From positions 1-58,063 of the forward strand of contig JBHHUM010000004.1 in the NCBI GenBank assembly GCA_046861645.1: a DNA stretch of 58,063 nucleotides, read 5' to 3'. Source of the DNA: Fidelibacterota bacterium (GTDB lineage Bacteria; Fidelibacterota; Marinisomatia; Marinisomatales; UBA2128). A model generated the notes under the pieces. That model saw nothing but the letters and a program-made list of their open reading frames with translations, ran no database searches and had not been told where the DNA came from. The position numbers and the translations under genes were made by a program. Of the stretch, positions 1,340-22,171 are shown one piece after another; position 1 is the first letter of the stretch; each line of letters begins with the position of its first letter.

Positions 1340-1507
1340 TCAATTCTGTTTTCGTCGCTGACGGCGGCGGATCTCCTTCAGATCGGCGCCGTGTCCCCGT
1401 CCATTTTTTTCGAATTGATACCACCACTCGAGCTCCTTTTCAGACCGCTTACTCAAGCGCTGCCACCATCCCAGATCAGTAATAGTGGAGTGTTCTTTCC
1501 GCTTCAT
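1340..1507 (-). CDS. Small basic hypothetical protein (55 aa)
   Basis: Manual translation MKRKEHSTITDLGWWQRLSKRSEKELEWWYQFEKNGRGHGADLKEIRRRQRRKQN. It fills the gap between co-oriented nuoB and gshA and is below the ORF-track cutoff. Confidence 0.5.
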   Translation of the reverse strand: MKRKEHSTITDLGWWQRLSKRSEKELEWWYQFEKNGRGHGADLKEIRRRQRRKQN

Positions 1508-1564
1508 ATAATTTGATAGTTAACGGATAAGTATTAGAGAACCGCGCGAGGAAGGGGTAGACCG

Positions 1565-2098
1565 TTATCCCGCCTTGAGAGCGGGACCTTTTTTTCTGGA
1601 AAAGAGATTTTTCAAGTTGGGTATGACAGTCTCCTGCATGGGACGTTCACCGCGGATTTTTTCCTGGAGATTCAGTAGACCTTCGATGAGGGCCTCCGGC
1701 CGGGGTGGGCAGCCAGGCACGTAAACATCTACGGGCACCACCAGGTCCACACCTTTGAGCACGTGGTATCCATACTGCCAGTAAGGTCCACCACTGGTGG
1801 CGCAACTTCCCATGGCGATGACGTACTTGGGATCAGCCATTTGTTCATAAAGACGTTTTACGCGGAGCGCCATCTTCATGGTGACTGTACCGGCAACTAT
1901 CATGACATCTGACTGTCGCGGTGAGGAACGGGGCATCATCCCGATCCGCTCCAGATCATGACGGGAGGCTGCCGTAGCCATCATCTCAATAGCGCAACAC
2001 GCCAGACCGAATTGAAAGTACCACGGAGAAGTGGATCGAGCCCAATTCAGGAGCTTATTCAAAGGCGCTACGATGATATTTCCAGAACCATCCTTCAT
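1565..2098 (-). CDS. nuoB: NADH-quinone oxidoreductase subunit B
   Basis: [23 protein letters not shown] and [16 protein letters not shown] motifs with the four N2-cluster cysteines. Confidence 0.95.
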
Positions 2099-8173: not shown

Positions 8174-8836
8174 ATGAAGAATTTCAGAGACCCCAAGACC
8201 CGTCTAATGAGGTTTGCCAGCCTCGCTCTCAGGCTATACCTTGTGTCTTTTATTGCTGGTTGTGCCCCAACCAAACCCCCTGCAACTGTCGCTGAAGCGA
8301 GGAGTATGGAGACCCGAACCGTTGATGCGGAGTACAACAAGGTGTTTAAGGCTTCCCTTAATGTCCTTCAGGATCTTTACTATAGTGTGGATTTAGTAGA
8401 AGCAGAAATTGGGTTGATTCAGGCCAGCCGACATACGGAGGGAAAACAGGTAGAAACAGTCGATGAGATGGGTCAAGAACAACCTCCTGATTGGAAGAAG
8501 ATATGTGGAATAGCAGCTGTAACAGTGCTTGTTATTGGTTTAATCACTTTGCTGTTCTCAGGTAGTGACGATGAGGATGATACCGAGGAAAAAGGCAACG
8601 CAGAGCATCATTACTATATACAAGATGATGATGGACCAAGCGGACCTGTTTTGTACAAGTACAAAGTGACAGTGAATCTGGAGGCAGCAGGGGACAGTCA
8701 GACAAAGGTACGTGTCAGTGCCCAGGGGGAACGGTTGGTAGGAGGTAGTGTTGTCGAGGCAGGACCTATTCAAGAGCCAGAATTCTTCCAGCGTTTCTTC
8801 GCCAGTCTGGACAAATCCCTCTTTCTTGAAAACTAA
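8174..8836 (+). CDS. Hypothetical lipoprotein with internal hydrophobic helix
   Basis: Lipobox IAGC; abuts the upstream gene; internal ICGIAAVTVLVIGLITLLF followed by acidic SDDEDDTEE. Start may be 8207. Confidence 0.7.
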   Translation: MKNFRDPKTRLMRFASLALRLYLVSFIAGCAPTKPPATVAEARSMETRTVDAEYNKVFKASLNVLQDLYYSVDLVEAEIGLIQASRHTEGKQVETVDEMGQEQPPDWKKICGIAAVTVLVIGLITLLFSGSDDEDDTEEKGNAEHHYYIQDDDGPSGPVLYKYKVTVNLEAAGDSQTKVRVSAQGERLVGGSVVEAGPIQEPEFFQRFFASLDKSLFLEN

Positions 8837-8913: not shown

Positions 8914-9384
8914 TTATTCACCGATGGCTGCTTCGGGTGGGGTATTAGGTTCCGCAGTAATACGGTACGTCTGTTCAGTCGTTGCCATCTCGCCGTAAGG
9001 GTCTGTGACTATCAGACGAAAGGTATATTCCCCCGGCCCCGCTTCAAAGCTTGTTTTTGCAGCCGTAGGATTATCGATTTTAACCTCTTTACCTTTAATT
9101 TGCTCCCAACGGAATGTCAGCTCATCCTTATCCTGGTCTAAGCCGGAACCACTCAACGTGATGGTCATACTTGCTGTGGCGGGGTTGCCATCATGTTTCA
9201 AAGTATATTTAATGATGGCATCTTCTATAGCCTGATGCCGATCTTGTTCGGCCTGTAAGGCTTCCAGCTTAGCGCGCTCTTCTTGCTCTTGCCGTATCTG
9301 CTGGTTCTTGAAATAAAGGGGACCACCGATGACGAGTATAAGGAGAATAATGAAGAGTACTAATTGACCAAAACCGTTATTCAT
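8914..9384 (-). CDS. Membrane-anchored PKD/Ig-like domain protein
   Basis: N-terminal TM helix, short coiled coil, then TITLSGSG.D.D.DELTFRWEQ..G...GEYTFRLIVTD.YG, a PKD pattern. Confidence 0.7.
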   Translation of the reverse strand: MNNGFGQLVLFIILLILVIGGPLYFKNQQIRQEQEERAKLEALQAEQDRHQAIEDAIIKYTLKHDGNPATASMTITLSGSGLDQDKDELTFRWEQIKGKEVKIDNPTAAKTSFEAGPGEYTFRLIVTDPYGEMATTEQTYRITAEPNTPPEAAIGE

Positions 9385-10588: not shown

Positions 10589-11719
10589 GTGGAATTGAAA
10601 ACGACTTACAAAGTTAGCCTATTGTTGTTAGGGCTGTTACTTCTGCAACAGCCTATCTCCGCAAAGACCAAGAAGTACACCGTTAAAGGCACCGTCGAAG
10701 ATGTGGACGGTGAAGCCATCAAGGGTGTTGAAGTTGTACTTCTGGATTCTGAAGGAGAAGAAGTAAAATCCGATAAGACCAGCAAGAAGGGTGCTTTCAA
10801 ATTAAAGAAGATTAAAGAAGGCAGCTATACCCTGGTTGCGGATGATGAAGACTTTGGCTCTTCATCTAAACAAATAGAGTTGAAGGATGATATAGAGGTC
10901 ATTCTGGTACTCTCCAAGACGACAGCTGAAGAAGCAGTTGAAGAAGCTGAGACAGCTGCAGAAGCAGGGGAAACTACAGAAAGAATGCCTCAGGAGGAGT
11001 ATGTTTCAACTGAATTGAGCTTTGAGGTTAAAAAGCTGCAAGCTGAGCTGGACCATGTCGGCTCACAGCTCAGGGACCTGCAAGCTAAGAGTGAAATGTG
11101 GGTCAATCCCCTTTCTATCTATAGTAAAGAGATCATCCTGAGTAATGGAAGTACGGTGTTCGGCAAGGTGGTTTACCAGGATGAAGAAATCCTCAAGGTT
11201 GAGACATTATTGGGATATCTGGTGATAAACCGGGAAGAGGTTGTGCGCATTATTGAAAATGTGGCGGGGCAGGAGGAACCAGAATATATCCCAGAGCAGA
11301 TTCGCGAGACTTACAGTCCTCCCCCCATGCCCAAATTAGCAGAGCCGCGGTATGTTGCCTCTGAACCTACCGAACGGATGTCGGATAAGCAGCGGTCTGC
11401 TAACGTGGTTCTCGTTGGTAACATTTCTGAGCTTAAGGATCGTTCCGGCAATATTACCTTCTCTGGCCAGGTAAAAAATATTGGTGGGCGGAGAGCTGAT
11501 TTTGTTAAACTCAATTTCGTTTTCCGTAAGAACTGGAGCGGTGAGACACAAACCCTGACCACATTTGTTTCGGGAACCTACCATACGTTTGATTCTGGAA
11601 TTGTGACGGACTCTTCTCTTCTTCCCGGTGCGTCGGGAAACTTTGAGTTAGTTGTACCATCGAGTTTTGGACCGTTTATTGGCTATTCTTACACGATTGA
11701 TTGGGAAGAATACGAGTGA
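10589..11719 (+). CDS. Secreted multidomain protein: carboxypeptidase-regulatory-like Ig domain, coiled coil, Sm/SH3-like domain, FxLYD-like C-terminal domain
   Basis: Signal peptide; VKGTVED.DGE.IKGVEVVL...G.F.LK.I.EG.YTL; heptad FEVKKLQAELDHVGSQLRDLQ; IILSNGSTVFGKVVYQDEEILKVETLLGYLVINREEVVRI; FSGQVKNIG...LLPGASGNFE. Confidence 0.75.
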   Translation: MELKTTYKVSLLLLGLLLLQQPISAKTKKYTVKGTVEDVDGEAIKGVEVVLLDSEGEEVKSDKTSKKGAFKLKKIKEGSYTLVADDEDFGSSSKQIELKDDIEVILVLSKTTAEEAVEEAETAAEAGETTERMPQEEYVSTELSFEVKKLQAELDHVGSQLRDLQAKSEMWVNPLSIYSKEIILSNGSTVFGKVVYQDEEILKVETLLGYLVINREEVVRIIENVAGQEEPEYIPEQIRETYSPPPMPKLAEPRYVASEPTERMSDKQRSANVVLVGNISELKDRSGNITFSGQVKNIGGRRADFVKLNFVFRKNWSGETQTLTTFVSGTYHTFDSGIVTDSSLLPGASGNFELVVPSSFGPFIGYSYTIDWEEYE

Positions 11720-12666
11720 TTTTTTCTGCACGGCAAGCACGGTTCAAGCGATTGGTGCTTTTTGGGATATGCATTGGAGCAGTGCCCTGGCATATATTTT
11801 CGCAAACTACTCCAACAAGTGGTGGCGATGATTTCTTTTTGGATTTGGGTATAGTTATTGAACCGTCAACCGGTAATGAAAAAATTAATCGGTTTATCCA
11901 AGCCCCGCCTGAAAAGGTAAAATTATTCATCGACAAGGCTCCCAGTGGCTCCGTCTATATGGCCTCTACGAAGGAGCTCCAGGAGACCCTGATTCGAATC
12001 AATCGGAAGATTGAAAGCTTACAGCTTGCTTTTCAGCGACAAACGAATTACCTCAAAGAAGAGAACAACGAACTGCGTCTCATGATTACAGACCTTATGG
12101 AGCAGGTAAACACTCCTGCTGAGGTTTCTACCCCTACCGTTAGCCCGGGAGAAAAGCACTCCAACAGCGAGGAAATAACAACGACATCCCCCATAATGGA
12201 GTTAGCAAAAGGATCCTCTGTGAAAGCTCCTAATTCAAAAGAAATAGACGAAGAACAGATATCCTTGGTCGTCAAGGATGATAAGCCAGCAGTGTTCAAC
12301 CGCATGCTCTACATGAATGCCGTGTTTGCTTATCAGCGGGAAGATTATCAGACGGCAATTCGACAGTTTAAAGACTTGGCGGTAAATGTTGCGGATGATA
12401 TTACAGCGGGTAACGTGATCTATTGGATGGCAGACTGTCATTTTCAGCTCGGTCAACCCACCGAAGCCCTTTCGGTGCTCTCCCAACTGGATGCATTTAA
12501 GGGCTCTGATAAACTGGATGATGCTAAGATTCTGGAAGGTCTCTCCTTACGACAGTTGGGACGGTATGAACAAGCTACTGCAGCCTTTGCCAAGGTCGTA
12601 GAGCAGTATCCTGAAAGTGAATACTATCGTTTGGCGCAAATGGAATTCAACCGGTCTAAGAGATAG
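11716..12666 (+). CDS. Secreted coiled-coil + TPR protein (CpoB/YbgF-like C-terminus)
   Basis: GTG overlaps the upstream TGA; N-terminal hydrophobic signal; coiled coil LQETLIRINRKIESLQ; YWMADCHFQLG, KLDDA, F.KVVEQYPESEY. Confidence 0.8.
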   Translation: MIFSARQARFKRLVLFGICIGAVPWHIFSQTTPTSGGDDFFLDLGIVIEPSTGNEKINRFIQAPPEKVKLFIDKAPSGSVYMASTKELQETLIRINRKIESLQLAFQRQTNYLKEENNELRLMITDLMEQVNTPAEVSTPTVSPGEKHSNSEEITTTSPIMELAKGSSVKAPNSKEIDEEQISLVVKDDKPAVFNRMLYMNAVFAYQREDYQTAIRQFKDLAVNVADDITAGNVIYWMADCHFQLGQPTEALSVLSQLDAFKGSDKLDDAKILEGLSLRQLGRYEQATAAFAKVVEQYPESEYYRLAQMEFNRSKR

Positions 12667-12667
12667 T

Positions 12668-14029
12668 ATGAAGAAGACCTACCTTAGTATAACCGTTTTG
12701 TTGGGGTTGTTGCTGGTTGTTTCGTTGAGCGCTGTGACGCGCATATCCTATACACATCCTGGGCAGATGATAAAAATCCCCACGACCAGTACTGACCGCT
12801 CTCCCTATCTTTTCAGTGCAGGATTTGGGACGGAAATTCACAGTTTCTCTCCATTTAATACGGCCCGAGGGGTGTATTTTTACATGGATTTGTCCAAGAA
12901 TTTTACATTGGGTTTTTCTTCCGGTCAGGGGGCTGATACTACCGCCCTTCTGGCAGAATCGCAATATGTACCCCCGGTGGAATTCGGGTTCCATGTTCAG
13001 CAGCGGCTTTATACGCGTGGGGATATATCTTTCTCCATAGGTATTCATGATATTGTATTTGAAAATGCAGATACAGGTGTTAGCCTGGACCCGAAGCAGC
13101 TCTCTTTCTTCGGTGTCTTAGGTAGCCAGAAGCCATTAGGGGATTACAGTCTCAGAACATACATGGGGTTTGGCACCGGTGGGTTTGCGCAACAGACAGC
13201 TACTTTAGATACTACAACAACAACCGATACAACCGGTACAGAAGCAGGAACAAATGCAGGAGTTTTTGCAGGTTTTATTTTGAACACACCGTTTATGCCC
13301 AAGTGGGGTGGTTTAGATTTTGTGGGTGAATTCGATGGTACAGGCATCAATGTGGGACTCCGCATCCCCCTTACCTCGGATTATCGCCTGAGCCTAGGGT
13401 TCACCCACATACAGAATTTGCCTAATTGGACAGAGCCTTACGATGTAACTCACCCTGGCTTCACAATGGGACTTGATATGTCCGTTCCCAGGGGAGTTGG
13501 AAAGGAAGTGCCATCTTTGCCTTCAGGTGAAGCCGGTCCTTATCCTGTACCTGAGGAAGGGATGTATGATTCAGTTATGGTAGCTGCGGATGCTGCTGTC
13601 TCCAACCTGCGTGACTCCTTGCGTGTCAGCGAGCATGAATTGCGTAACCTGGCGACACAGATTGCTCAACTTAAACAGAAAAACATTGCCCTGGAAGATT
13701 CTGTGAAAACAATGATGTTGGTGAGGAATAAATCCCAGAAGAACATCAACCGGGCTATGCGCCATCTTTCAAGATCTTTGAGATATTTTTATTCAGGTGA
13801 TTATCGTGAAGCCCTTCAGGAGGTGGAAACTGCCCTGGAGCTGAATCCTAACTTGGCATTGGCCTACGCTAGACGTGGTTCTATTTATTACAAGTTAGGT
13901 GACACACAGCGAGCCACGATTAACTGGAATCTCGCCTTGCAAATGGATCCAGAATATGATGATGTGAGGAACATTTTAAAAGCGCTGCACGAAAATCGAT
14001 TGAAGACAACCAGTTTTAGTCGTGAGTAA
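12668..14029 (+). CDS. Secreted beta-strand-rich (possible outer-membrane barrel) + coiled coil + TPR protein
   Basis: Signal MKKTYLSITVLLGLLLVVSLSA; alternating Gly/aromatic strands (GLDFVGEFDGTGINVGLRIPL, YRLSLGF); coiled coil; TPRs ALELNPNLALAYARRGSIYYKLG...ALQMDPEY. Confidence 0.8.
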   Translation: MKKTYLSITVLLGLLLVVSLSAVTRISYTHPGQMIKIPTTSTDRSPYLFSAGFGTEIHSFSPFNTARGVYFYMDLSKNFTLGFSSGQGADTTALLAESQYVPPVEFGFHVQQRLYTRGDISFSIGIHDIVFENADTGVSLDPKQLSFFGVLGSQKPLGDYSLRTYMGFGTGGFAQQTATLDTTTTTDTTGTEAGTNAGVFAGFILNTPFMPKWGGLDFVGEFDGTGINVGLRIPLTSDYRLSLGFTHIQNLPNWTEPYDVTHPGFTMGLDMSVPRGVGKEVPSLPSGEAGPYPVPEEGMYDSVMVAADAAVSNLRDSLRVSEHELRNLATQIAQLKQKNIALEDSVKTMMLVRNKSQKNINRAMRHLSRSLRYFYSGDYREALQEVETALELNPNLALAYARRGSIYYKLGDTQRATINWNLALQMDPEYDDVRNILKALHENRLKTTSFSRE

Positions 14030-14043
14030 GTAGGGGACATTAA

Positions 14044-14835
14044 ATGGATATAGCAACATTAGTAGGAATTGTTTTAGGTCTGGCCTCTATATTCGGGGGA
14101 ATATTTATAGCGGCCTCGGATGCTGGAGCTGGAATGAGTGGATTTATTTCCACGTCCAGTTTCGCCATCGTTTTTGGAGGCATGGTGGCGTCAGTCTCTG
14201 TTGCTTTTCCTCTGGCAGAGGTGATGAAGCTGGGCGCCGCTATCGGAGCTGTTTTCAAAGGTAGCAAGGAAAAACTTGGTTTAATGGTAGACGATGCTGT
14301 GGAAATCGCTACTGTTGGCCGGAAAGGGGCTGCGGACCTGGAGAAATCCATTGAAGGGATAAAAAATCCCTTTTTCAGAGACGGTGTTCAAATGGTCGTG
14401 GATGGATACTCTGAGGAGGAGTTAATCGACATCCTGGAGACCAGAATTCAATATCGAGAAGTGAGAGAGCGTTCACAAGCCAGTCTTTTCCAAACCATGG
14501 GTACCATGGCTCCAGCCTGGGGAATGATTGGTACGCTAATTGGTTTGGTTATTATGCTGGCTGGCTTTGGTGGTGAAGGTGGTGGGGGCACTGAGGCTCT
14601 GGGGTCGGGTATGTCGGCCGCACTGATTACGACTTTTTATGGTGCCGTTTTTGCAAATCTGTTTTTCCTTCCTATGGCGGCAAAACTTAATTCCCGAGTC
14701 TCCTCAACCAGTACACAGCAAGCCATGTTTATCGAGGCAGCCAGACTTATTCATCAAAGAAAGCACCCCTTAATTGTGAGGGAAAAGCTCAACTCATATA
14801 TTCCTCCTAAGGAGTGGAGAAGAGAAGAAGGCTAA
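14044..14835 (+). CDS. motA: Flagellar-type stator A subunit (PomA/MotA)
   Basis: MDIATLVG, IVFGG, GRKG...LE, FFRDGVQMVVDG, APAWGMIGTLIGL, AALITTFYGA..ANL.FLP.A.KL. Confidence 0.93.
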   Translation: MDIATLVGIVLGLASIFGGIFIAASDAGAGMSGFISTSSFAIVFGGMVASVSVAFPLAEVMKLGAAIGAVFKGSKEKLGLMVDDAVEIATVGRKGAADLEKSIEGIKNPFFRDGVQMVVDGYSEEELIDILETRIQYREVRERSQASLFQTMGTMAPAWGMIGTLIGLVIMLAGFGGEGGGGTEALGSGMSAALITTFYGAVFANLFFLPMAAKLNSRVSSTSTQQAMFIEAARLIHQRKHPLIVREKLNSYIPPKEWRREEG

Positions 14836-14840
14836 TCTGA

Positions 14841-15587
14841 GTGGCGACACAGAAAGAAAAAAAGGCATATAAGAAGGGATTTAAAGACGGTGCAGAATCA
14901 GTAGAGGAAGGGCTCCCGGGTTGGTTTGGTACTTTTGCTGATATGATGACGTTGCTCTTCGCCTTTTTTGTGCTCCTGGCGGCTATTTCTACCATTGATC
15001 CGGTGAAACTGCAGGAGATGGCTGACTCCATGGGGAAAAAGGTTGGCAAGACGAAGAAAGAAGGTAAAGCCATGAATCTGGCGGATATAAAGAAAGCCGT
15101 GGATGAAATGGTAAAGAATATGCCCGAGGATGAGACAGGAAAGAAACCAGTGGAAGTTAGGACCAGCCCAAAGGGAGTGACCCTGGGAATATCCTCTGAT
15201 ATCAGTTTTGCTTCAGGGACAGCGGATCTGCAACCGGGTATTATTGATGTTCTTAAGAAACTGGTGCCAACGATTGACGATCCTAACAATGCTTTTCCAG
15301 TAGCGATAGAGGGGCACTCAGACAGTGATCCCCTACCGGAAAGATTTCAGGATAAATATCCATCTAACTGGGAACTATCGGCAGCCCGTGCTGCTGCTGT
15401 AGTGCGTGAGCTTATGAAATTGGGGGTGGATCCCACCCGCCTCCAGGCTGTCGGTTATGCTCAATATCAGCCTAGGGAAAAACCAACTGACTGGATTCCA
15501 ACAGAAAAGGATATACCAAAATTTAACAAAACACCGGAGGAAAAAGCACTTAACCGGCGTGTAGAGATAACCTTCTTAGCAAGATAA
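14841..15587 (+). CDS. motB: Flagellar-type stator B subunit (PomB/MotB) with OmpA-like peptidoglycan-binding domain
   Basis: WFGTFADMMTLLFAFFVLL with the conserved Asp; IEGHSD, YPSNWELSAARA, NRRVEI. Confidence 0.93.
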   Translation: MATQKEKKAYKKGFKDGAESVEEGLPGWFGTFADMMTLLFAFFVLLAAISTIDPVKLQEMADSMGKKVGKTKKEGKAMNLADIKKAVDEMVKNMPEDETGKKPVEVRTSPKGVTLGISSDISFASGTADLQPGIIDVLKKLVPTIDDPNNAFPVAIEGHSDSDPLPERFQDKYPSNWELSAARAAAVVRELMKLGVDPTRLQAVGYAQYQPREKPTDWIPTEKDIPKFNKTPEEKALNRRVEITFLAR

Positions 15588-15629
15588 GAACATCTATTTT
15601 TGACCGAGGTAAGGAAATGAGGAGAAATT

Positions 15630-17186
15630 ATGAGAAATAGGATACTATTGACCCTTACACTGTTATTGTGTTTGGGACTTTTCCTGAGCAGCGGAGTGGG
15701 TCAGGAATCAACGTATCTTTCCCAGAAACTGATGTTGGAGCAAGATTTGCGTTCGCGCATCGAAAGTGCACTCAGCAAGATTTTGGATGACCAGCGTTAC
15801 GTTCTGGACGTTACGGTAGACCTGAAATTCACTCCTACCATTAAAGAAGAGGTTACTTACCGGCCAAGTGAAGAGCGTCCTGTTGGGGTAGCAACAGAAG
15901 AAGAGTCTTCCAGGGAAAGGGAAAAAGTACCCTCAAGGGAGGAACCTACATCCCGATATACAGGTCTGCCCATACCGGGCTTTGAATTCAGGGACTACGA
16001 TGAAGGAAAGCCTGTAGTTGAAACTTCACCAGAAGAGACAACAACAGCTCCTGCTACACCTGCTGAAGAGGCGAAAATTCTGACGCAGTCTTACACAGAT
16101 ATAAAGTCGTCTGTTCCAGAGATTTCACAGATGGAGATCAGTTGTATTTTACCAGAAGGATCTGCCCCGGAACTTATAGAGAATGTGCGGCAGATTATCA
16201 TGGTTGCCTCCCGCTTCGATAGAAGCCGGGGTGATGTTCTTTCCATCATGACCGCTTCCTTTAAAGAGAGGAAGGACGAGAAAACCGCTGAGGCTGTAAT
16301 ACTCCGCACCATTGCTCATAAGATTGATTCCTTAGAGAATGCCCAGACTACAGAAGCGACTACAGAAGGTAGTATGTTGATGGAGGAGTGGCTTCGCTGG
16401 CAGGAGGAAGAGCGTTCCCGACGAGAAGAAGAGATGAACATATTGGCTTCTGAGCTGGCAGCCTTAAGAGATAAGCTTGAGGAAAAGGAAGCCGCTGCAG
16501 AAATCAGTGAAGAAGAGATACAGTTGGCTCGCATGGACGAATATGCCAAGCAAATTAGTATGTTGCAAACTCGCCTGGACAGTCTTCAGGTAATTGCCAG
16601 CCAGGAACAGGAGAATGCCGAAGAATTATCTCAGGTAGATTTAACACCACAGGAATTAGCAGCCGCTCCTGTTCAGGAGGAGGTGTCAGGAGGTATTGAT
16701 AACCTCCCGATTTATCTAATGAGTGCTATTTCTCTATTGGCTGTTATAGCTTTAGCAGCGGTTATTATTTTCAATGGGCGGTCAAAGCCAAAATATGTTA
16801 TGCCCCCACCGTGGATGATGCCTCCACCGAAGAAAAAAAAAGTGAAGAAGACCAAGAAGAGTAAGAAAGAAAGTGGGGATCAAGAAGAAGAGCAGGCATT
16901 GGCGACACCAGCACCACCACCAGCACCGTCACAGCCGCCGCAACCGGCCATGGAAACAGAGGAAGACACCGCAGTAATGCAATCAGAGATTAAGAGTGCT
17001 CGTCAATCGGTCGTGTCTATGAGCGTAGGACAACCTGATACGGCCACATCCATAGTCCGGGAATGGCTAGAGCAAGAGGCGCCCCCTCCGCCGGAACCAG
17101 CCCAAACCGCTGAGGCCGGACCTGCTGAACCGGAGGCAGCTGCCGAGGATGAGAAGGGCAAGAAGAAGAAAAAGAAGAAAAAGTAG
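15630..17186 (+). CDS. Atypical FliF-like MS-ring protein (RBM3 only, long coiled coil, one TM, FliG-binding tail)
   Basis: LEQDLRSRIESALSKIL...VLDVTVDLKF and EISQMEISCIL...IENVRQIIMVASRFDRSRGDVLSIMTASF match the two halves of FliF RBM3. TM LPIYLMSAISLLAVIALAAVIIF. Tail SARQSVVSMSVGQPDTATSIVREWL. Sits directly upstream of fliG. Confidence 0.75.
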   Translation: MRNRILLTLTLLLCLGLFLSSGVGQESTYLSQKLMLEQDLRSRIESALSKILDDQRYVLDVTVDLKFTPTIKEEVTYRPSEERPVGVATEEESSREREKVPSREEPTSRYTGLPIPGFEFRDYDEGKPVVETSPEETTTAPATPAEEAKILTQSYTDIKSSVPEISQMEISCILPEGSAPELIENVRQIIMVASRFDRSRGDVLSIMTASFKERKDEKTAEAVILRTIAHKIDSLENAQTTEATTEGSMLMEEWLRWQEEERSRREEEMNILASELAALRDKLEEKEAAAEISEEEIQLARMDEYAKQISMLQTRLDSLQVIASQEQENAEELSQVDLTPQELAAAPVQEEVSGGIDNLPIYLMSAISLLAVIALAAVIIFNGRSKPKYVMPPPWMMPPPKKKKVKKTKKSKKESGDQEEEQALATPAPPPAPSQPPQPAMETEEDTAVMQSEIKSARQSVVSMSVGQPDTATSIVREWLEQEAPPPPEPAQTAEAGPAEPEAAAEDEKGKKKKKKKK

Positions 17187-17203
17187 GCGAGGGGCTAAAG
17201 ATA

Positions 17204-18130
17204 ATGATTACAGACTACAATACATTATCAGGTTTGGATAAAATAGCTATTATTTTCACCATCCTTGGTGAGAGCTTGGCAATAAAACTTATTAAAGGAC
17301 TCCCGGAAACGGACATCAAGAAGATACGAACAAGGATTCGCGAAATGGGAGCTGTCTCTACGGCTGTAAGGAAGCAGGTGGTAGATGAATTTTACCTTTC
17401 CTTTCTATCCAAGAAATTCAGCGAAGAGGATGGCGATTCCCAACGCCCATTTCAGTTTCTGGAGGGGATGCCCGACGAGCGTCTTCTTGCTCTGCTGGAG
17501 GTGGAAGAACCACGCATTATTGCCTTAGCCCTGGCACAAGTAAGTGCTGATCAACGACGCTTTGTTCTGGATAGACTTCCCCGGGAAGTGACTGGTCGTG
17601 TGCTGATCGAGATGGGGGTACTGCATGAGATTCCGCTGGAAGGTGTTGTCAGTATTGCTGCACAGTTGGAGGAAAAATCTCACTTTCTCCCCAGAGGAGT
17701 GGATTTCTCCAGGGGTGGTGGCAAGGATATTGCTGAAGTCCTCAGCTCCATGAGTATGGAAGAGGAGGAAAAATATCTGGAAGCTATCGGGCGAGAGTCT
17801 CCGGAACTGTTAAAGGAAATCAAAAAATACCACCTCTCTTTCGAAGATATTTTTCAATTTCCTGATACTCTCCTTAGGGATCTTATGAATTCAGTGGAGT
17901 TGGATACTATCGCCATGGCTATGAAGGGTTTGGATCAAGCTACAGTGGATCGGGTGATTGAAAATCTTCCCCAGAAGAAGCAGGCTATGTATGAACCTGT
18001 GGAAGGAGCTGTGGCCAAGCGTGAAATCGATGCTGCCCGTAAGAATATAGTGACTGCTGCCAGACAAATGGAGGAGGATGGTCGTTTCAGTCTGGAGGAT
18101 ATCCTGGGTGGTGGAGAAATGGTGGAATAG
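17204..18130 (+). CDS. fliG: FliG-family rotor protein (shortened, divergent)
   Basis: LSGLDKIAII...LGE, VVDEFY, PFQFL, GGG linker, SFEDI, IAMAMKG, EIDAARKNIV..ARQMEEDG correspond to the FliG N, M and C domains. Confidence 0.88.
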   Translation: MITDYNTLSGLDKIAIIFTILGESLAIKLIKGLPETDIKKIRTRIREMGAVSTAVRKQVVDEFYLSFLSKKFSEEDGDSQRPFQFLEGMPDERLLALLEVEEPRIIALALAQVSADQRRFVLDRLPREVTGRVLIEMGVLHEIPLEGVVSIAAQLEEKSHFLPRGVDFSRGGGKDIAEVLSSMSMEEEEKYLEAIGRESPELLKEIKKYHLSFEDIFQFPDTLLRDLMNSVELDTIAMAMKGLDQATVDRVIENLPQKKQAMYEPVEGAVAKREIDAARKNIVTAARQMEEDGRFSLEDILGGGEMVE

Positions 18131-18137
18131 AATCCTC

Positions 18138-18908
18138 ATGTACGATTATTACGGAGAGCCTCTCCCGAAATACCTGTGCGGGAGAGGTTTTCTCTTATTA
18201 ATAGGGTTGGTATTACTAGGGCTGAATTCTGCTGATGGTTCTGATATGTGGACAAATTCCGTCTCTGGATCCTGGACATTGACCAGTGGAAATACCGAGC
18301 AGTCTGAGTATGCGGCGACGGGTTCCTTCTCACGTAAGGGTGATATTAAGATAGGCTCTACCCTGTTGCAGGATACAGAATTGCGGATAGTGCTTTCCCA
18401 TTCCAGAGGGGTACTTGAGGATAGTCTCTATCAACATGAAGGGGAAGCAACTTTCCTGTTCGATGTCATGGCGCATCAGACGTTTTCACCATTTTTTCTT
18501 TCCGGTTGGGAATATGATTCTACCGCAGGTTTAGACTCCCGGCTGGAGGCAGGGCTGGGTCTAAAGTGGGCCTTTGGTAGTGGATTTTCTATTAGCGGAG
18601 CGGTATTATTTGAGCTGGAAGATTATAAGGGAGAAGGTCGGGTTTCTCAAATAAGATGGTCTATTCGGCCCAAATACAAAAAAACATTTCCATCAGGAAT
18701 GTCCGTGGTTTATATGGTATTCTTTAAGCCGATTCAGGGAGATTTCAATAACTATCTGATTAAAAATGACGCTTTTATTGAGTTACCCACCGCTCTACCA
18801 TGGCTTTCTATAAAACTGACAGTTGAACATGATTATAATTCTCAACCTCCCAGTGATGTTAAAAAGTGGGATAATGAAATCAATATTGGTATAAAGATAA
18901 ATTTATAA
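18138..18908 (+). CDS. DUF481/YdiY-like outer-membrane beta-barrel
   Basis: Signal-like hydrophobic segment; W...VSGSW.LTSGNT, GLDSR.E.GLGL.W, YNSQPP..VKK.D....IGI terminal strand. Confidence 0.7.
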   Translation: MYDYYGEPLPKYLCGRGFLLLIGLVLLGLNSADGSDMWTNSVSGSWTLTSGNTEQSEYAATGSFSRKGDIKIGSTLLQDTELRIVLSHSRGVLEDSLYQHEGEATFLFDVMAHQTFSPFFLSGWEYDSTAGLDSRLEAGLGLKWAFGSGFSISGAVLFELEDYKGEGRVSQIRWSIRPKYKKTFPSGMSVVYMVFFKPIQGDFNNYLIKNDAFIELPTALPWLSIKLTVEHDYNSQPPSDVKKWDNEINIGIKINL

Positions 18909-21522: not shown

Positions 21523-21557
21523 AACCTTCAAGGTTCGCTAAACCTTGAAGGTTACAA
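21523..21557. repeat. REP-like palindrome, left of RAYT
   Basis: AACCTTCAAGGTT-CGCTA-AACCTTGAAGGTT, a perfect 13-bp stem, followed by ACAA. Confidence 0.85.
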
Positions 21558-21611
21558 TCAGAGCAGGTTACAATCAGAGCAGGTTACAATCAGAGCAGGT
21601 TACAATCAGAG
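21549..21611 (+). repeat. 16-bp tandem repeat, about 3.9 copies of AGGTTACAATCAGAGC
   Basis: Directly visible; begins inside the right arm of the left REP. Confidence 0.95.
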
Positions 21612-21622
21612 AGATAAAAAAC

Positions 21623-22171
21623 TTGAAGTATCATAAAGAAGGTCACTATCATTTGTATAATCGTGGTGTTGACCGTCGGGATATCTTCTTCGATAACAGG
21701 GATTATTTATTTTTCCTAAAACGATTTAAATTGTTCAAGACACGATATAAGGTTTCAGTGATATCCTACTGTTTGATGCCTAACCATTTCCACCTCTTTT
21801 TAAAACAAAACAGTGAAAAACACTCTATCGGGAAGATGATTGGGGACTTGACAAACTCTTATACAAAAGCAATCAATGTTAAATATGAAAGAATAGGGGT
21901 ATTATTTGAGGGGCCGACGAAATCTAAATCAGTCGAGGAGAACTCGCATTTTCTTTGGCTGGTGAAGTATATATTGACAAATCCTGTTCGGGCTGGGCTA
22001 TCTCAAAAAGTTGAGGATTGGGAATACTCGAGCGCCCAAGATCTACTTGGTCTTAGGGATGGAACACTTGTTGAAAAAGGCGAAGTTCTATCTTGGTTTG
22101 AATCTCCTTCTCATTTTAGCGATTTTATTCGTGATGAGGGTCTTAAATTTGACTATAGTATATTCTTCTAA
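21623..22171 (+). mobile_element. REP-associated tyrosine transposase (RAYT / IS200-like HUH Y1)
   Basis: YHLYNRG..R.DIF, YCLMPNHFHL (HUH), YILTNPVRAGL, WEYSS. Start likely TTG 21623; the ORF track extends it to 21545 through the repeat. Confidence 0.88.

What the first reader, a model, noticed from the sequence alone, without database searches (positions are those of the whole stretch)
10589..18908. Candidate flagellum-less rotary motor: stator + FliF-like ring + FliG operon with its own envelope proteins
Seen: eight co-oriented genes with gaps from a 4-nt overlap to 42 nt: three secreted coiled-coil/TPR proteins, motA, motB, fliF-like, fliG and a DUF481-like barrel. No fliE/H/I/M/N, fliPQR, flhAB, flg, fliC or che gene lies anywhere in the 58 kb. 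Established: MotAB, FliF and FliG are the minimal torque unit, and fliF-fliG normally sit between fliE and fliH-fliI rather than straight after motAB. Non-flagellar 5:2 motors (ExbBD, TolQR, GldLM, AglRQS, ZorAB) do not use FliF/FliG. Inference: this is a self-contained rotor-stator machine with a non-filament output, such as surface motility, energised outer-membrane transport or envelope remodelling. All genes are intact, and both rotor proteins have lost the parts that contact the missing components, which suggests repurposing rather than decay. I cannot confirm that it is undescribed.
Basis: partly seen in the sequence, partly recalled or inferred. Interest (0 to 1): 0.93.

Follow-up and report, generated by a model that had tools for sequence, protein, structure and literature searches.

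The report
Flagellum-less FliG/FliF/MotAB motor module
A marine SAR406 (Marinimicrobia) bacterium with no flagellum genes carries a conserved seven-gene operon that pairs flagellar-type stator and rotor proteins with three envelope proteins of its own, which looks like a rotary motor built for some job other than turning a filament.

Summary
Window 10589-18908 carries eight co-oriented, tightly spaced genes: a secreted coiled-coil protein, two TPR proteins, MotA, MotB (plug + OmpA), a FliF-like protein with only the RBM3 ring motif, a three-domain FliG and a DUF481 protein. The 94.5%-complete genome has no FlhA, FliP, rod, FliM/N, YscJ_FliF or CheW match.

The first seven genes are a phylum-wide unit. 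They kept the same order in 15 of 15 sampled loci. This FliG type occurs in 131 of 201 genomes of the phylum, and 100 of those lack FlhA (my hand count). Five of five flagellated relatives carry the block plus a separate flagellar FliG/MotAB set. dN is low and dS is saturated. So it is not a relic and not part of a flagellum.

Stator residues and most rotor-stator contact residues are kept. The FliM-binding EHPQR motif and FliF RBM1/2 are gone. DUF481 is only a genus-specific neighbour. A second MotAB pair lies elsewhere in the genome.

My ten literature searches found no description of it.

The parts
10589..11719 (+). Secreted coiled-coil protein ('CarbR', 376 aa). It has a signal peptide, a CarboxypepD_reg Ig-like domain (residues 31-100, found only in this order), a coiled coil, a small beta domain and a conserved C-terminal beta domain. 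In most other lineages the N-terminus is a lipobox (Cys).
   Evidence: Pfam; NCBIfam domain hits; family alignment A4; present in 15/15 loci.
11716..12666 (+). TPR protein 1: signal sequence, coiled coil and a C-terminal TPR domain, an architecture like CpoB/YbgF. It is duplicated in some lineages. The GTG start at 11716 overlaps the upstream stop by 4 nt; the longest ORF starts at TTG 11701.
   Evidence: Pfam; NCBIfam tol_pal_ybgF 50.1 bits (cut-off 90.1) and CpoB; sequence; 15/15 loci.
12668..14029 (+). TPR protein 2 (453 aa from ATG 12668). It has a signal peptide, a ~290-aa Gly/aromatic-rich N-terminal domain with no Pfam family, a coiled coil and a very highly conserved C-terminal TPR pair. 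It gave the lowest E-values of the seven block proteins in most sampled loci.
   Evidence: E 1e-90 to 1e-175; A1. Atlas start and a YjbH-like/Gemmatimonadota lead.
14044..14835 (+). MotA-type stator A subunit (263 aa, 4 TM). It aligns over its full length with solved flagellar MotA/PomA. The equivalents of E. coli R90, E98 and the two channel prolines are kept. The TM3-TM4 loop carries a Gly-rich insert.
   Evidence: (9lu9, E 3.5e-40, residues 1-255 to 1-247).
14841..15587 (+). MotB-type stator B subunit (248 aa): TM helix with the conserved Asp (FADMMT), a plug region and an OmpA-like peptidoglycan-binding domain.
   Evidence: Asp kept in 16/16 block MotB.
15630..17186 (+). FliF-like ring protein (518 aa). 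In order: signal/TM1; an RBM3-like domain split by an acidic low-complexity insert with an invariant PIPGF motif; a periplasmic coiled coil of variable length; TM2; a Pro/Lys-rich cytoplasmic linker; a conserved C-terminal motif KSxRQxVVSMSVGQPxTATxIVxEWL; an acidic stretch and a poly-Lys tail. It has no RBM1 or RBM2.
   Evidence: A2; 6scn residues 241-439, E 4.5e-07; hhalign to flagellar FliF C-termini, probability 90.3, E 1.5e-06.
17204..18130 (+). FliG paralogue (308 aa) with N, M and C domains. It has a ~24-residue deletion at the N/M junction and has lost the EHPQ...R motif. It keeps the Gly-Gly linker and most torque-helix charges.
18138..18908 (+). DUF481 protein (family of predicted outer-membrane beta-barrels, from my recall). 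It is adjacent but not part of the conserved unit. It was found after FliG only in the three genomes of this genus.
   Evidence: present in L038 and L039; in same-order G177 and G148 FliG is followed directly by the lyase.

Best explanation
The seven genes at 10589-18130 encode a self-contained rotor-stator machine that does not depend on a flagellum. It is specific to, and ancestral within, the Marinimicrobia/SAR406/Fidelibacterota phylum as far as I could search. Proposed mechanism: MotA/MotB units of the flagellar (PomAB/MotAB) type sit in the inner membrane, anchor to peptidoglycan through the MotB OmpA domain, and conduct protons or Na+ past the conserved MotB Asp. Their cytoplasmic loops push on the C-terminal domain of a FliG ring. 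That ring is held on the cytoplasmic C-terminal helices of a ring made of the FliF-like protein. The FliF-like protein keeps only RBM3, the motif that forms the S-ring, so the ring has no inner core to house an export gate. There is no FliM/FliN C-ring, hence probably no CheY-type switching, and no rod, hook or filament. The three secreted proteins (coiled-coil/lipoprotein, CpoB-like TPR1, TPR2) would form the periplasmic and outer-membrane part, either as a stator scaffold or as the element that receives the rotation. The output is unknown. Shown: gene content, conservation, selection, independence from flagella, and retention or loss of specific motifs. Inferred: ring assembly, rotation, the roles of the envelope proteins, and the output.
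For: Identity of the parts:
- Pfam.
- MotA aligns full-length with solved flagellar MotA (E 3.5e-40).
- FliG matches solved FliG (4.3e-21).
- The FliF-like profile matches FliF RBM3 (E 4.5e-07).
- The FliF-like C-terminal motif aligns with flagellar FliF C-termini of the same phylum (hhalign probability 90.3). That region of FliF binds FliG_N (passages of bioRxiv 10.1101/2024.07.30.605930).

Functional residues (residue pairs as given in PMC12505986):
- MotB Asp kept in 16/16.
- MotA R90 and E98 equivalents and both prolines kept.
- FliG K264, R281 (as K/R), D288 (as E) and R297 equivalents kept. Five of 16 members carry the full acidic pair EDE.

Ring formation is plausible: RBM3 alone forms the S-ring, and RBM1/2 are not needed for that (passage).

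Independence from flagella:
- No FlhA, FliP, rod, FliM/N, YscJ_FliF or CheW in G000.
- Hand count: 131 of 201 phylum genomes have this FliG type; 100 of them have no FlhA match over cut-off and 31 have one.
- FliMN_C matched 46 of 201 genomes, all of them FlhA-positive.
- 5 of 5 flagellated genomes have a separate flagellar FliG plus MotAB.

Unit and selection:
- Same seven families in the same order in 15/15 loci, and no other family in all 15.
- dN 0.07-0.29 with dS above 1.3 or saturated; FliG dN/dS 0.036 and TPR2 0.063, against 0.035 for the neighbouring lyase.

Loss of exactly the contacts to absent partners: EHPQ...R, the FliM site (PMC6290876), is not conserved in any of 16 block FliG but is present in 4 of 5 flagellar FliG of the phylum, with one variant ENPQ. 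RBM1/2, which house the export gate, are absent.
Against:
- In the window's form the torque helix is four residues shorter and the D289 equivalent is Pro or a gap (11 of 16 members).
- The FliG N/M junction lacks about 24 residues, which could change ring packing.
- The region that forms the beta-collar in FliF is replaced by an acidic low-complexity insert.
- All NCBIfam flagellar equivalog scores are far below cut-off: MotA 180.7 against 394, FliG 113.2 against 226.7, FliF 21.6 against 129.75.
- What the rotation would act on is unknown.
- The only cultured member of the phylum is described as non-motile (PMC11652737, passages). I did not test whether it carries the block.
- Distribution outside the phylum could not be examined.
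Confidence: 0.6

Rival explanations
1. It is a proton-motive-force-dependent envelope system that does not use sustained rotation. In this reading it resembles Tol-Pal/CpoB: it tethers the outer membrane, remodels the wall or senses the envelope, and the FliF-like and FliG proteins serve only as an inner-membrane platform that gates or localises the MotAB units.
For: TPR1 resembles CpoB/YbgF of Tol-Pal (50.1 bits). MotB carries an OmpA domain. The genome shows only one ExbB-ExbD-ExbD-TonB set and no clear TolQR among its three MotA_ExbB matches. The only cultured member of the phylum is reported non-motile. The FliF-like periplasmic coiled coil varies from zero to about 200 residues, which is odd for a precise transmission shaft.
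Against: MotA is of the flagellar type over its full length. TolQ and ExbB models reach only E 0.0065-0.0067. The charged residues of both sides of the flagellar torque interface are conserved across the phylum, which is hard to explain unless FliG_C meets MotA. No TolA, TolB or Pal homologue lies in the block.
Confidence: 0.2
2. It is an accessory or second motor set that works with a true flagellum, and it merely lingers in lineages that lost the flagellum recently.
For: 31 of the 131 genomes with the block also have FlhA. When rooted with ExbB, the block MotA branches among the phylum's flagellar MotA, which is compatible with origin by duplication of flagellar genes.
Against: 100 of 131 block-bearing genomes lack FlhA, and none of those 100 has FliMN_C. 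Nearly every family of the window's order carries the block without a real FlhA match; the three genomes of that order over the FlhA cut-off are G177, G183 and G189. Purifying selection is as strong as on a housekeeping neighbour. The FliM site and RBM1/2 are lost in flagellated carriers too. Flagellar clusters have their own FliF, FliG and MotAB.
Confidence: 0.05
3. It is a decaying relic of a lost flagellum, or the flagellar genes are simply missing from an incomplete or contaminated assembly.
For: The genome is a 184-contig assembly at 94.5% completeness. A 31-residue flagellin-N-like fragment sits at one contig end.
Against: All eight ORFs are intact. The same gene order is found in 15/15 loci, including single-contig genomes. 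dN/dS is far below 1. All three genomes of the genus lack FlhA and FliMN_C. The contig carries ordinary housekeeping genes.
Confidence: 0.02
4. It is a surviving relative of the pre-flagellar rotor-stator module that existed before a type III export apparatus was recruited, rather than a derivative of the flagellum.
For: It has the composition such a stage would need: stator, FliG, and an RBM3-only ring without an export gate. The block FliG is only about 23-29% identical to the flagellar FliG of the same phylum.
Against: Within the limited MotA tree the block clade sits inside the phylum's flagellar MotA (96/91 and 92/87). The outgroup branch is very long and the tool flagged long-branch attraction. 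As far as I could search, the block is confined to one phylum. The missing FliF and FliG parts are more simply read as deletions.
Confidence: 0.08

Closest known systems
Bacterial flagellar motor (MotA5B2 stator, FliG ring on the FliF MS-ring)
   Same: Homologous MotA, MotB (plug, Asp, OmpA domain), three-domain FliG, FliF RBM3 and the FliF C-terminal FliG-binding motif. Charges at the rotor-stator interface are conserved.
   Different: No export gate, ATPase, rod, hook, filament, FliM/FliN or chemotaxis genes. FliF lacks RBM1/2 and a recognisable beta-collar. FliG lacks the EHPQR site and about 24 residues. The operon has three envelope proteins of its own. All NCBIfam equivalog cut-offs are missed.
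Non-flagellar 5:2 motors: ExbBD, TolQR, AglRQS, GldLM, ZorAB (the 'GIT' class of PMC12505986)
   Same: An ion-driven inner-membrane motor with an output that is not a filament. It is encoded next to periplasmic TPR/coiled-coil and outer-membrane proteins, as in the Agl-Glt and Gld/T9SS machines (that comparison is from my recall).
   Different: The A subunit is of the flagellar 'FIT' type: four TM helices, a large cytoplasmic domain, and full-length alignment to MotA/PomA. The B subunit has a plug and an OmpA domain (class definitions from passages of PMC12505986). To my knowledge none of those systems uses FliG or FliF.
Periplasmic stator scaffolds of complex flagellar motors (PflA/PflB TPR proteins of Campylobacter/Helicobacter; MotX/MotY/FlgT of Vibrio)
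   Same: TPR-rich secreted proteins encoded with, and possibly positioning, MotAB-type stators.
   Different: This resemblance is recalled, not tested. No sequence similarity to those proteins was found or sought beyond the generic TPR hits. Those scaffolds surround a rod-bearing basal body.
Tol-Pal system with CpoB (YbgF)
   Same: TPR1 has the CpoB layout (signal sequence, coiled coil, TPR; 50.1 bits to tol_pal_ybgF). It is paired with an OmpA-domain protein and a MotA-family channel.
   Different: The score is below the family cut-off of 90.1. There is no TolA, TolB or Pal. The channel is MotA-like, not TolQ-like, and FliG and FliF-like proteins are present.
Rotor proteins in genomes that lack filament genes, as tallied in 'Mapping the loss of flagellar motility across the tree of life' (PMC12199754)
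   Same: [quoted passage not shown]
   Different: In the passages I read, the survey describes no specific operon, partner proteins or lineage. Here the unit, its phyletic spread and its sequence adaptations are defined.

Membership tests
Bacterial flagellum / flagellar motor | FliG with N, M and C domains | tested here: met
   Pfam FliG_N 1.2e-13, FliG_M 4.1e-12, FliG_C 2e-23; PDB FliG 4.3e-21.
Bacterial flagellum / flagellar motor | Flagellar-type (FIT) stator: four-TM MotA with a large cytoplasmic domain; MotB with plug, conserved Asp and OmpA domain | tested here: met
   The helix count of the torque-generating interface (TGI4 or TGI5) could not be checked without a structure model.
Bacterial flagellum / flagellar motor | FliF with RBM1, RBM2 and RBM3 | tested here: not met
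   Only PF08345 matches. PF01514 is absent from the genome. The family profile matches only Salmonella FliF residues 241-439.
Bacterial flagellum / flagellar motor | Flagellar type III export gate (FlhA, FliP) | tested here: not met
   0 matches in G000. FlhA is over cut-off in only 48 of 201 phylum genomes.
Bacterial flagellum / flagellar motor | Rod, hook and filament proteins | tested here: not met
   Flg_bb_rod 0. Flagellin_N gives only a 23.5-bit fragment at a contig end. tblastn with relatives' flagellar clusters found none.
Bacterial flagellum / flagellar motor | C-ring (FliM/FliN) and the FliG EHPQR FliM-binding motif | tested here: not met
   FliMN_C 0 in G000 and 0 in every FlhA-negative genome of the 201. 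The motif is not conserved in 16/16 block FliG.
Bacterial flagellum / flagellar motor | Scores above NCBIfam equivalog cut-offs for MotA, MotB, FliF and FliG | tested here: not met
   Best scores 180.7/394 (MotP), 142.5/283 (MotD), 21.6/129.75 (fliF), 113.2/226.7 (fliG).
Generic 5:2 ion transporters (ExbBD / TolQR / AglRQS; 'GIT') | Condensed cytoplasmic domain in the A subunit; B subunit without plug | tested here: not met
   MotA aligns over its full length with flagellar MotA/PomA. TolQ and ExbB models reach E 0.0065-0.0067. MotB_plug 3e-16. Class features are taken from PMC12505986.
Tol-Pal system | TolQ-TolR-TolA-TolB-Pal with CpoB | tested here: not met
   Only a sub-threshold CpoB-like TPR1 (50.1 against 90.1 bits). 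No other Tol-Pal family appears among the block proteins.
Injectisome / T3SS inner ring (SctJ) | YscJ_FliF (PF01514) lipoprotein ring with export apparatus | tested here: not met
   PF01514 0 matches, FHIPEP 0, FliP 0 in G000.
The block itself (Marinimicrobia seven-gene unit) | Order: coiled-coil/lipoprotein, TPR1 (x1-2), TPR2, MotA, MotB, FliF-like, FliG | tested here: met
   Window plus 15 of 15 loci from 15 genomes in 10 families and the two congeners.

The most novel reading that the evidence does not exclude
The block encodes a previously unrecognised envelope-spanning rotary machine. A flagellar-type stator spins an export-less FliF/FliG ring, and the ring's motion passes through dedicated TPR/coiled-coil proteins to the outer membrane. 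This would give SAR406/Marinimicrobia, which are widespread in the dark ocean and mostly lack flagellar genes, a non-flagellar motility or a surface-transport or outer-membrane-energising function. It would also show that a FliG-MotAB torque unit can work without a type III secretion core, which is the stage that models of flagellar origin require.
Probability: 0.3. Interest if true: 0.95.

Novelty: new variant of a known kind. Interest (0 to 1): 0.85.

Why it matters
FliG-MotAB torque generation has so far been tied to flagella. A recent classification treats this stator type as flagellum-specific (PMC12505986). Here the torque unit is conserved under selection in a whole phylum. About half of the sampled genomes (100 of 201) carry it without any flagellar export, rod or C-ring gene.

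If it rotates, it is a new use of the best-studied bacterial motor, in a globally abundant and almost uncultured marine group. It would also be a natural experiment on which flagellar parts are needed for rotor assembly and torque. [quoted passage not shown]' (raised in PMC12199754) into something that can be tested directly.

If it does not rotate, it still defines a new envelope system built on FliF/FliG. For annotation, FliG and MotAB hits in these genomes should not be read as evidence of flagellar motility.

Tried and rejected
Relic or decay: rejected, on conservation, selection and coexistence with full flagella.

Missing flagellar genes as an assembly artefact: rejected at genus and order level.

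DUF481 as part of the machine: rejected. It is genus-specific.

Extra conserved flanking genes: an all-against-all clustering of ORFs from the 15 loci found no further family in all loci. The families seen in 4-7 loci are antisense ORFs or one upstream gene found in 4 loci.

Promoter and terminator scans: counts did not exceed shuffles (19 against 17.3; 15 against 11.4). No operon boundary could be drawn from them.

Distribution outside the phylum: not resolved.
- The representative search with TPR2 was swamped by generic TPR proteins.
- Cluster look-ups of ten distant full-length hits gave almost no taxon names.
- The genome-contig scan kept only the best 80 of 254 relatives. The titles that name a lineage name Marinimicrobia, Neomarinimicrobiota, Fidelibacterota or 'FCB group'; many say only 'uncultured bacterium'; one 1.8-kb contig lies in a MAG labelled Nitrospinales.
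- The Atlas gave a lead to a Gemmatimonadota cluster and to YjbH-like proteins for the TPR2 N-domain, and only Fidelibacterota clusters for the coiled-coil protein. These are leads, not findings.

Folds of the envelope proteins: a PDB profile search with the coiled-coil protein family found only coiled-coil noise.

Link between the block and the second MotAB pair: in three genomes of one genus the pair lies about 7 kb downstream of FliG. The genes between them are unrelated (rubrerythrin, acyltransferase, a GAF-HD protein and others), so I do not claim linkage.

Deep origin: a MotA tree with only in-phylum flagellar sequences and one very long ExbB outgroup is suggestive at most.

Literature: ten searches found no description of a FliF/FliG/MotAB unit in non-flagellated bacteria or in Marinimicrobia. 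The supplements of PMC12505986 and PMC12199754, which list the genomes and proteins surveyed, may bear on whether such proteins were seen. Subscription-journal papers are not in the library.

Full report
**What is in the sequence**

Between 10589 and 18908 the + strand carries eight ORFs with no sizeable gap. Pfam assigns them as follows:
- 10589-11719: a CarboxypepD_reg-domain protein.
- 11701/11716-12666 and 12617/12668-14029: two TPR proteins.
- 14044-14835: MotA_ExbB.
- 14841-15587: MotB_plug + OmpA.
- 15630-17186: a protein matching only the YscJ_FliF_C model (3.4e-07).
- 17204-18130: FliG, with its N, M and C domains all above the gathering scores.
- 18078/18138-18908: a DUF481 protein.

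The first three proteins and the FliF-like protein begin with signal-like hydrophobic segments. MotA has four hydrophobic segments and MotB one. The FliF-like protein has a second TM at residues 355-385. With the likely starts, the gaps run from a 4-nt overlap to 42 nt. Those starts are GTG 11716, ATG 12668 (the start the Atlas record uses) and ATG 18138. The next two genes (beta-eliminating lyase, M19 dipeptidase) follow just as closely, and the surroundings are housekeeping genes: malic enzyme, an Opp-type ABC transporter, an aromatic amino-acid hydroxylase, a PPDK-like enzyme. Promoter-like and terminator-like sites are no more frequent than in shuffles.

**The genome has no flagellum genes**

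The window is contig C129 of a 2.51-Mb assembly (184 contigs, completeness 94.47, contamination 0.14).
- Family searches of all six frames found no FHIPEP/FlhA, FliP, Flg_bb_rod, FliMN_C, YscJ_FliF or CheW. Each search rang in the flagellated control genomes.
- FliG_C matched once, at this gene.
- Flagellin_N gave one match below cut-off. It is a 31-residue flagellin-N-like stretch at the very end of contig C49, and it runs straight into a TonB-dependent-receptor-like gene. It is a fragment or a chimeric contig end, not a gene.
- As an independent check I took all ORFs on the cluster strand of five relatives' flagellar clusters and ran tblastn against the laid genome. For the two clusters I printed (19 and 17 ORFs), only MotA, MotB, FliG and FliI found matches, FliI to ATP-synthase-like genes on C142. 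One further ORF had short ~55-residue matches.

**Who it is, and how widespread the block is**

The closest FliG proteins (60-100% identity, the best 120 of 1207 hits) carry source names such as Candidatus Marinimicrobia, Neomarinimicrobiota or Fidelibacterota bacterium. They are called 'flagellar motor switch protein FliG', 'FliG C-terminal domain-containing protein' or 'hypothetical protein'. Of the 80 best genome loci encoding TPR2, those whose titles name a lineage give the same names or 'FCB group'. Many titles say only 'uncultured bacterium', and one 1.8-kb contig lies in a MAG labelled Nitrospinales.

In a sample of 201 genomes of the phylum, the window's FliG found a match in 151, covering 73 of 78 genera. 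The matches fall into two classes:
- Full-length matches at 33-88% identity (E of 1e-45 or lower).
- Matches to residues ~82-300 at 26-30% identity (E around 1e-20 to 1e-25).

By my hand count from the table, 131 genomes have the first class. One genome, G030 (2.9e-34), is ambiguous, and I counted it as not having that class. The block type was not found in family f3 (0 of 13, genomes of about 1 Mb) or f12 (0 of 2), and in only 7 of 33 genomes of f24.

**It is a fixed seven-gene unit**

I fetched about 14 kb around the first-class FliG in 15 genomes from 10 families, some closed or nearly so. In all 15 the same order recurs: coiled-coil protein, TPR1 (one or two copies), TPR2, MotA, MotB, FliF-like, FliG. 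An all-against-all clustering found no other gene family present in all 15. DUF481 follows FliG only in the window and its two congeners. In two genomes of the same order, FliG is followed directly by the lyase. The unit is therefore 10589-18130, and DUF481 is a neighbour. In most loci TPR2 gave the lowest E-values (1e-90 to 1e-175), lower than FliG's.

**It is not part of a flagellum and not a relic**

- FlhA is over cut-off in 48 of the same 201 genomes. FliMN_C matches 46, all of them among those 48.
- Crossing the tables by hand gives: block FliG with FlhA, 31; block FliG without FlhA, 100; FlhA without block FliG, 17; neither, 53.
- None of the three genomes of the window's genus has FlhA or FliMN_C.
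- In five flagellated genomes I located every FliG_C and MotA_ExbB match. Each genome has one FliG in a flagellar cluster, with FlhA, its own MotA-MotB about 9 kb away and a canonical 520-543-aa FliF next to it. Each also has a second FliG in the block with the block's own MotAB. The block thus coexists with a complete flagellum in some lineages and stands alone in most.
- Against the congener G099, dN is 0.07-0.29 and dS is above 1.3 or saturated. Where dS could be computed, dN/dS is 0.036 (FliG), 0.063 (TPR2) and 0.078 (DUF481), against 0.035 for the lyase.

**What was kept: the stator**

- MotA aligns from first to last residue with solved flagellar MotA/PomA (E 3.5e-40 to 4e-18).
- Its best NCBIfam models are MotP, MotA and PomA. 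TolQ, ExbB and ZorA reach only E 0.003-0.007.
- I aligned 16 block proteins with five flagellar ones from the phylum. The block MotA keeps the Arg and Glu that correspond to E. coli R90 and E98, and both channel prolines. The block MotB keeps the channel Asp in 16 of 16, a conserved plug-like segment and the OmpA-domain motifs.
- PMC12505986 (passages) gives the contact pairs R90/D288-D289 and E98/R281. It also lists the features of flagellar ('FIT') stators: a large cytoplasmic torque interface, four-helix TM fold, plug + linker and OmpA-like domain. Those I could test from sequence are met.

**What was kept: the rotor**

- The block FliG keeps the equivalents of K264 (Lys), R281 (Lys/Arg), D288 (Glu, nearly invariant) and R297 (Arg), the Gly-Gly linker and the C-terminal helix.
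- Five of 16 members have the full acidic pair (EDE). Eleven, including the window, have a four-residue deletion there, with Glu-Pro in its place.
- A profile of 17 FliF-like sequences matches Salmonella FliF residues 241-439, which is RBM3 (E 4.5e-07), and other solved FliF S-ring fragments.
- The cytoplasmic C-terminus carries the most conserved segment of the FliF-like protein, KSxRQxVVSMSVGQPxTATxIVxEWL. It aligns with the C-termini of the phylum's flagellar FliF (...NPEDAxxLIRSWL), with hhalign probability 90.3 and E 1.5e-06 over 30 columns. I had anchored both sets on the Trp motif, which favours alignment.
- In FliF that region binds FliG_N, and an RBM3 fragment alone forms the S-ring without RBM1/2 (passages of bioRxiv 10.1101/2024.07.30.605930).

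**What was lost**

The losses are the contacts to the absent partners.
- The FliF-like family has no RBM1 or RBM2, the parts that form the inner core housing the export gate.
- Where FliF has the beta-collar, the FliF-like family has an acidic, Pro/Thr-rich insert of variable length. Only a PIPGF motif is invariant in it.
- Between RBM3 and TM2 lies a coiled coil of zero to about 200 residues.
- The block FliG lacks about 24 residues at the N/M junction.
- In none of the 16 members is the EHPQ...R motif kept. The window has EEPR, and Glu where the Arg would be. Four of the five flagellar FliG of the phylum have EHPQ and one has ENPQ. That motif is the FliM-binding site (PMC6290876, passages).
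- No flagellar NCBIfam equivalog cut-off is reached.

**The three envelope proteins**

- *Coiled-coil protein.* Its core is a coiled coil, a small beta domain, a Pro-rich linker and a strongly conserved C-terminal beta domain. In 11 of 16 aligned members the N-terminus ends in a lipobox Cys. In the window's order a signal peptide plus the CarboxypepD_reg domain stands there instead.
- *TPR1.* It has the CpoB/YbgF layout and reaches 50.1 bits on the tol_pal_ybgF model, against a cut-off of 90.1.
- *TPR2.* It has a ~290-residue Gly/aromatic-rich N-domain without a Pfam family in any of 32 members, then a coiled coil, then two TPRs that are nearly invariant across the phylum. The Atlas lists YjbH-like clusters and a Gemmatimonadota cluster as its nearest neighbours by features. 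This is a lead only.

I could not obtain models, so whether TPR2 is an outer-membrane barrel is open. An invariant short motif (PIPGF) in a disordered loop of the ring protein, together with invariant TPR grooves in the same operon, suggests a peptide-TPR contact. This is my inference and is untested.

**A second stator**

The genome's other two MotA_ExbB matches are an ExbB-ExbD-ExbD-TonB set on C184 and a second MotA (MotA_N + MotA_ExbB) / MotB (plug + OmpA) pair on C31, which is followed by a DUF4352 protein.
- The triplet is conserved in 6 of 6 loci of the order. It keeps the R90/E98 equivalents and the MotB Asp.
- The MotA of this pair is found at 43-92% identity in roughly half of the 201 genomes, including non-flagellated ones. 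It is missing from some genomes that carry the block, for example five genomes of genus g6. No crisp count is possible, because flagellar MotA scores overlap with it.
- In a MotA tree the block clade (16 sequences, 100/99) and this clade (6 sequences, 100/100) are sisters (92/87). They sit among the phylum's flagellar MotA when rooted with the genome's ExbB. The tool warns of long-branch attraction and the outgroup branch is very long.
- A non-flagellated cell with one FliG and two flagellar-type stators recalls dual-stator flagellar motors (my recall). Whether both stators serve this rotor is unknown.

**Reading**

The best-supported explanation is a paralogue of the flagellar torque unit, probably derived from it. 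It has been stripped of export, axial and switching parts and coupled to three envelope proteins of its own. It is maintained by selection across a phylum in which most lineages have no flagellar genes. That it rotates follows from the conserved residues on both sides of the torque interface and in the ion path, and it is not shown.

The output is unknown. Candidates are surface movement, energising something at the outer membrane, or envelope maintenance.

Facts against, or limiting, this reading:
- The shortened torque helix in the window's form.
- The deletion at the FliG N/M junction.
- The variable coiled coil of the FliF-like protein.
- The non-motile phenotype reported for the only cultured species of the phylum (PMC11652737, passages). 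I did not test whether that species has the block.

**Novelty**

Ten full-text searches found no description of this unit. The nearest statement is in PMC12199754 (passages). [quoted passage not shown] PMC12505986 treats the flagellar stator type as specific to flagellar motility and does not mention Marinimicrobia in its main text. A 2026 preprint on the ancestral flagellum (PMC13277936) does not mention the phylum either. Supplements were closed and subscription journals are not in the library, so I cannot exclude prior mention. I file it as a new variant of a known kind: a flagellar rotor-stator without a flagellum. There is a fair chance that the whole machine is a new kind.

**Limits**

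Counts that cross searches are hand tallies from printed tables. The 201 genomes are a sample, and many are incomplete MAGs. Absence in an incomplete genome is 'not found'.

Noticed in passing
G000:C31, locus L032 93-2199 (- strand); also L120-L125: A second flagellar-type MotA (270 aa, MotA_N + MotA_ExbB) / MotB (240 aa, plug + OmpA) pair, followed by a secreted DUF4352 protein, in this non-flagellated genome. The triplet is conserved in 6/6 loci of the order, and the R90/E98 equivalents and the MotB Asp are kept. It is found in roughly half of the 201 phylum genomes.
   Followed up: partly
G000:C49, locus L002 about 1507-1599 (- strand), at the contig end: A 31-residue stretch resembling the conserved N-terminal flagellin motif (Flagellin_N 23.5 bits, below cut-off). 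It is followed immediately by the start of a TonB-dependent-receptor-like gene. It may be a leftover gene fragment or a chimeric contig end.
   Followed up: partly
window 21545-22171 (+): An ORF with an IS200-like Y1 transposase domain (6.3e-09) lies about 3.4 kb downstream of the block, after the lyase and dipeptidase genes.
   Followed up: no
window 10589-10900; alignment A4: In the window's order, the first protein of the block has a signal peptide plus a CarboxypepD_reg Ig-like domain. In 11 of 16 aligned members from other lineages the same position holds a lipoprotein lipobox. This looks like a swap of the anchoring mode.
   Followed up: partly
window 17130-17186 (FliF-like C-terminus): The FliF-like protein ends in an acidic stretch followed by a run of 8-9 lysines. 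Similar poly-Lys tails occur in several relatives but not all (L021, L022, L024, L027, L038, L039).
   Followed up: no
window about 14560-14600 (MotA TM3-TM4 loop): The block MotA proteins carry a Gly-rich insert of 5-10 residues in the periplasmic loop between TM3 and TM4. The phylum's flagellar MotA lack it.
   Followed up: no
L126 (G029:C1:136000-148000) and G011, G058: In one genus of family f24 the second MotA lies about 7 kb downstream of the block FliG. The genes between them include a GAF + HD (HD_5) protein. There, an extra 227-aa ORF sits between MotA2 and MotB2.
   Followed up: partly
window 8914-9384 (-) and 8174-8836 (+): A small PKD-domain protein (K319L-like_PKD, 1.5e-11) and a 220-aa ORF with no Pfam family at E up to 1e-05 lie just upstream of the block, beyond the aromatic amino-acid hydroxylase gene.
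   Followed up: no
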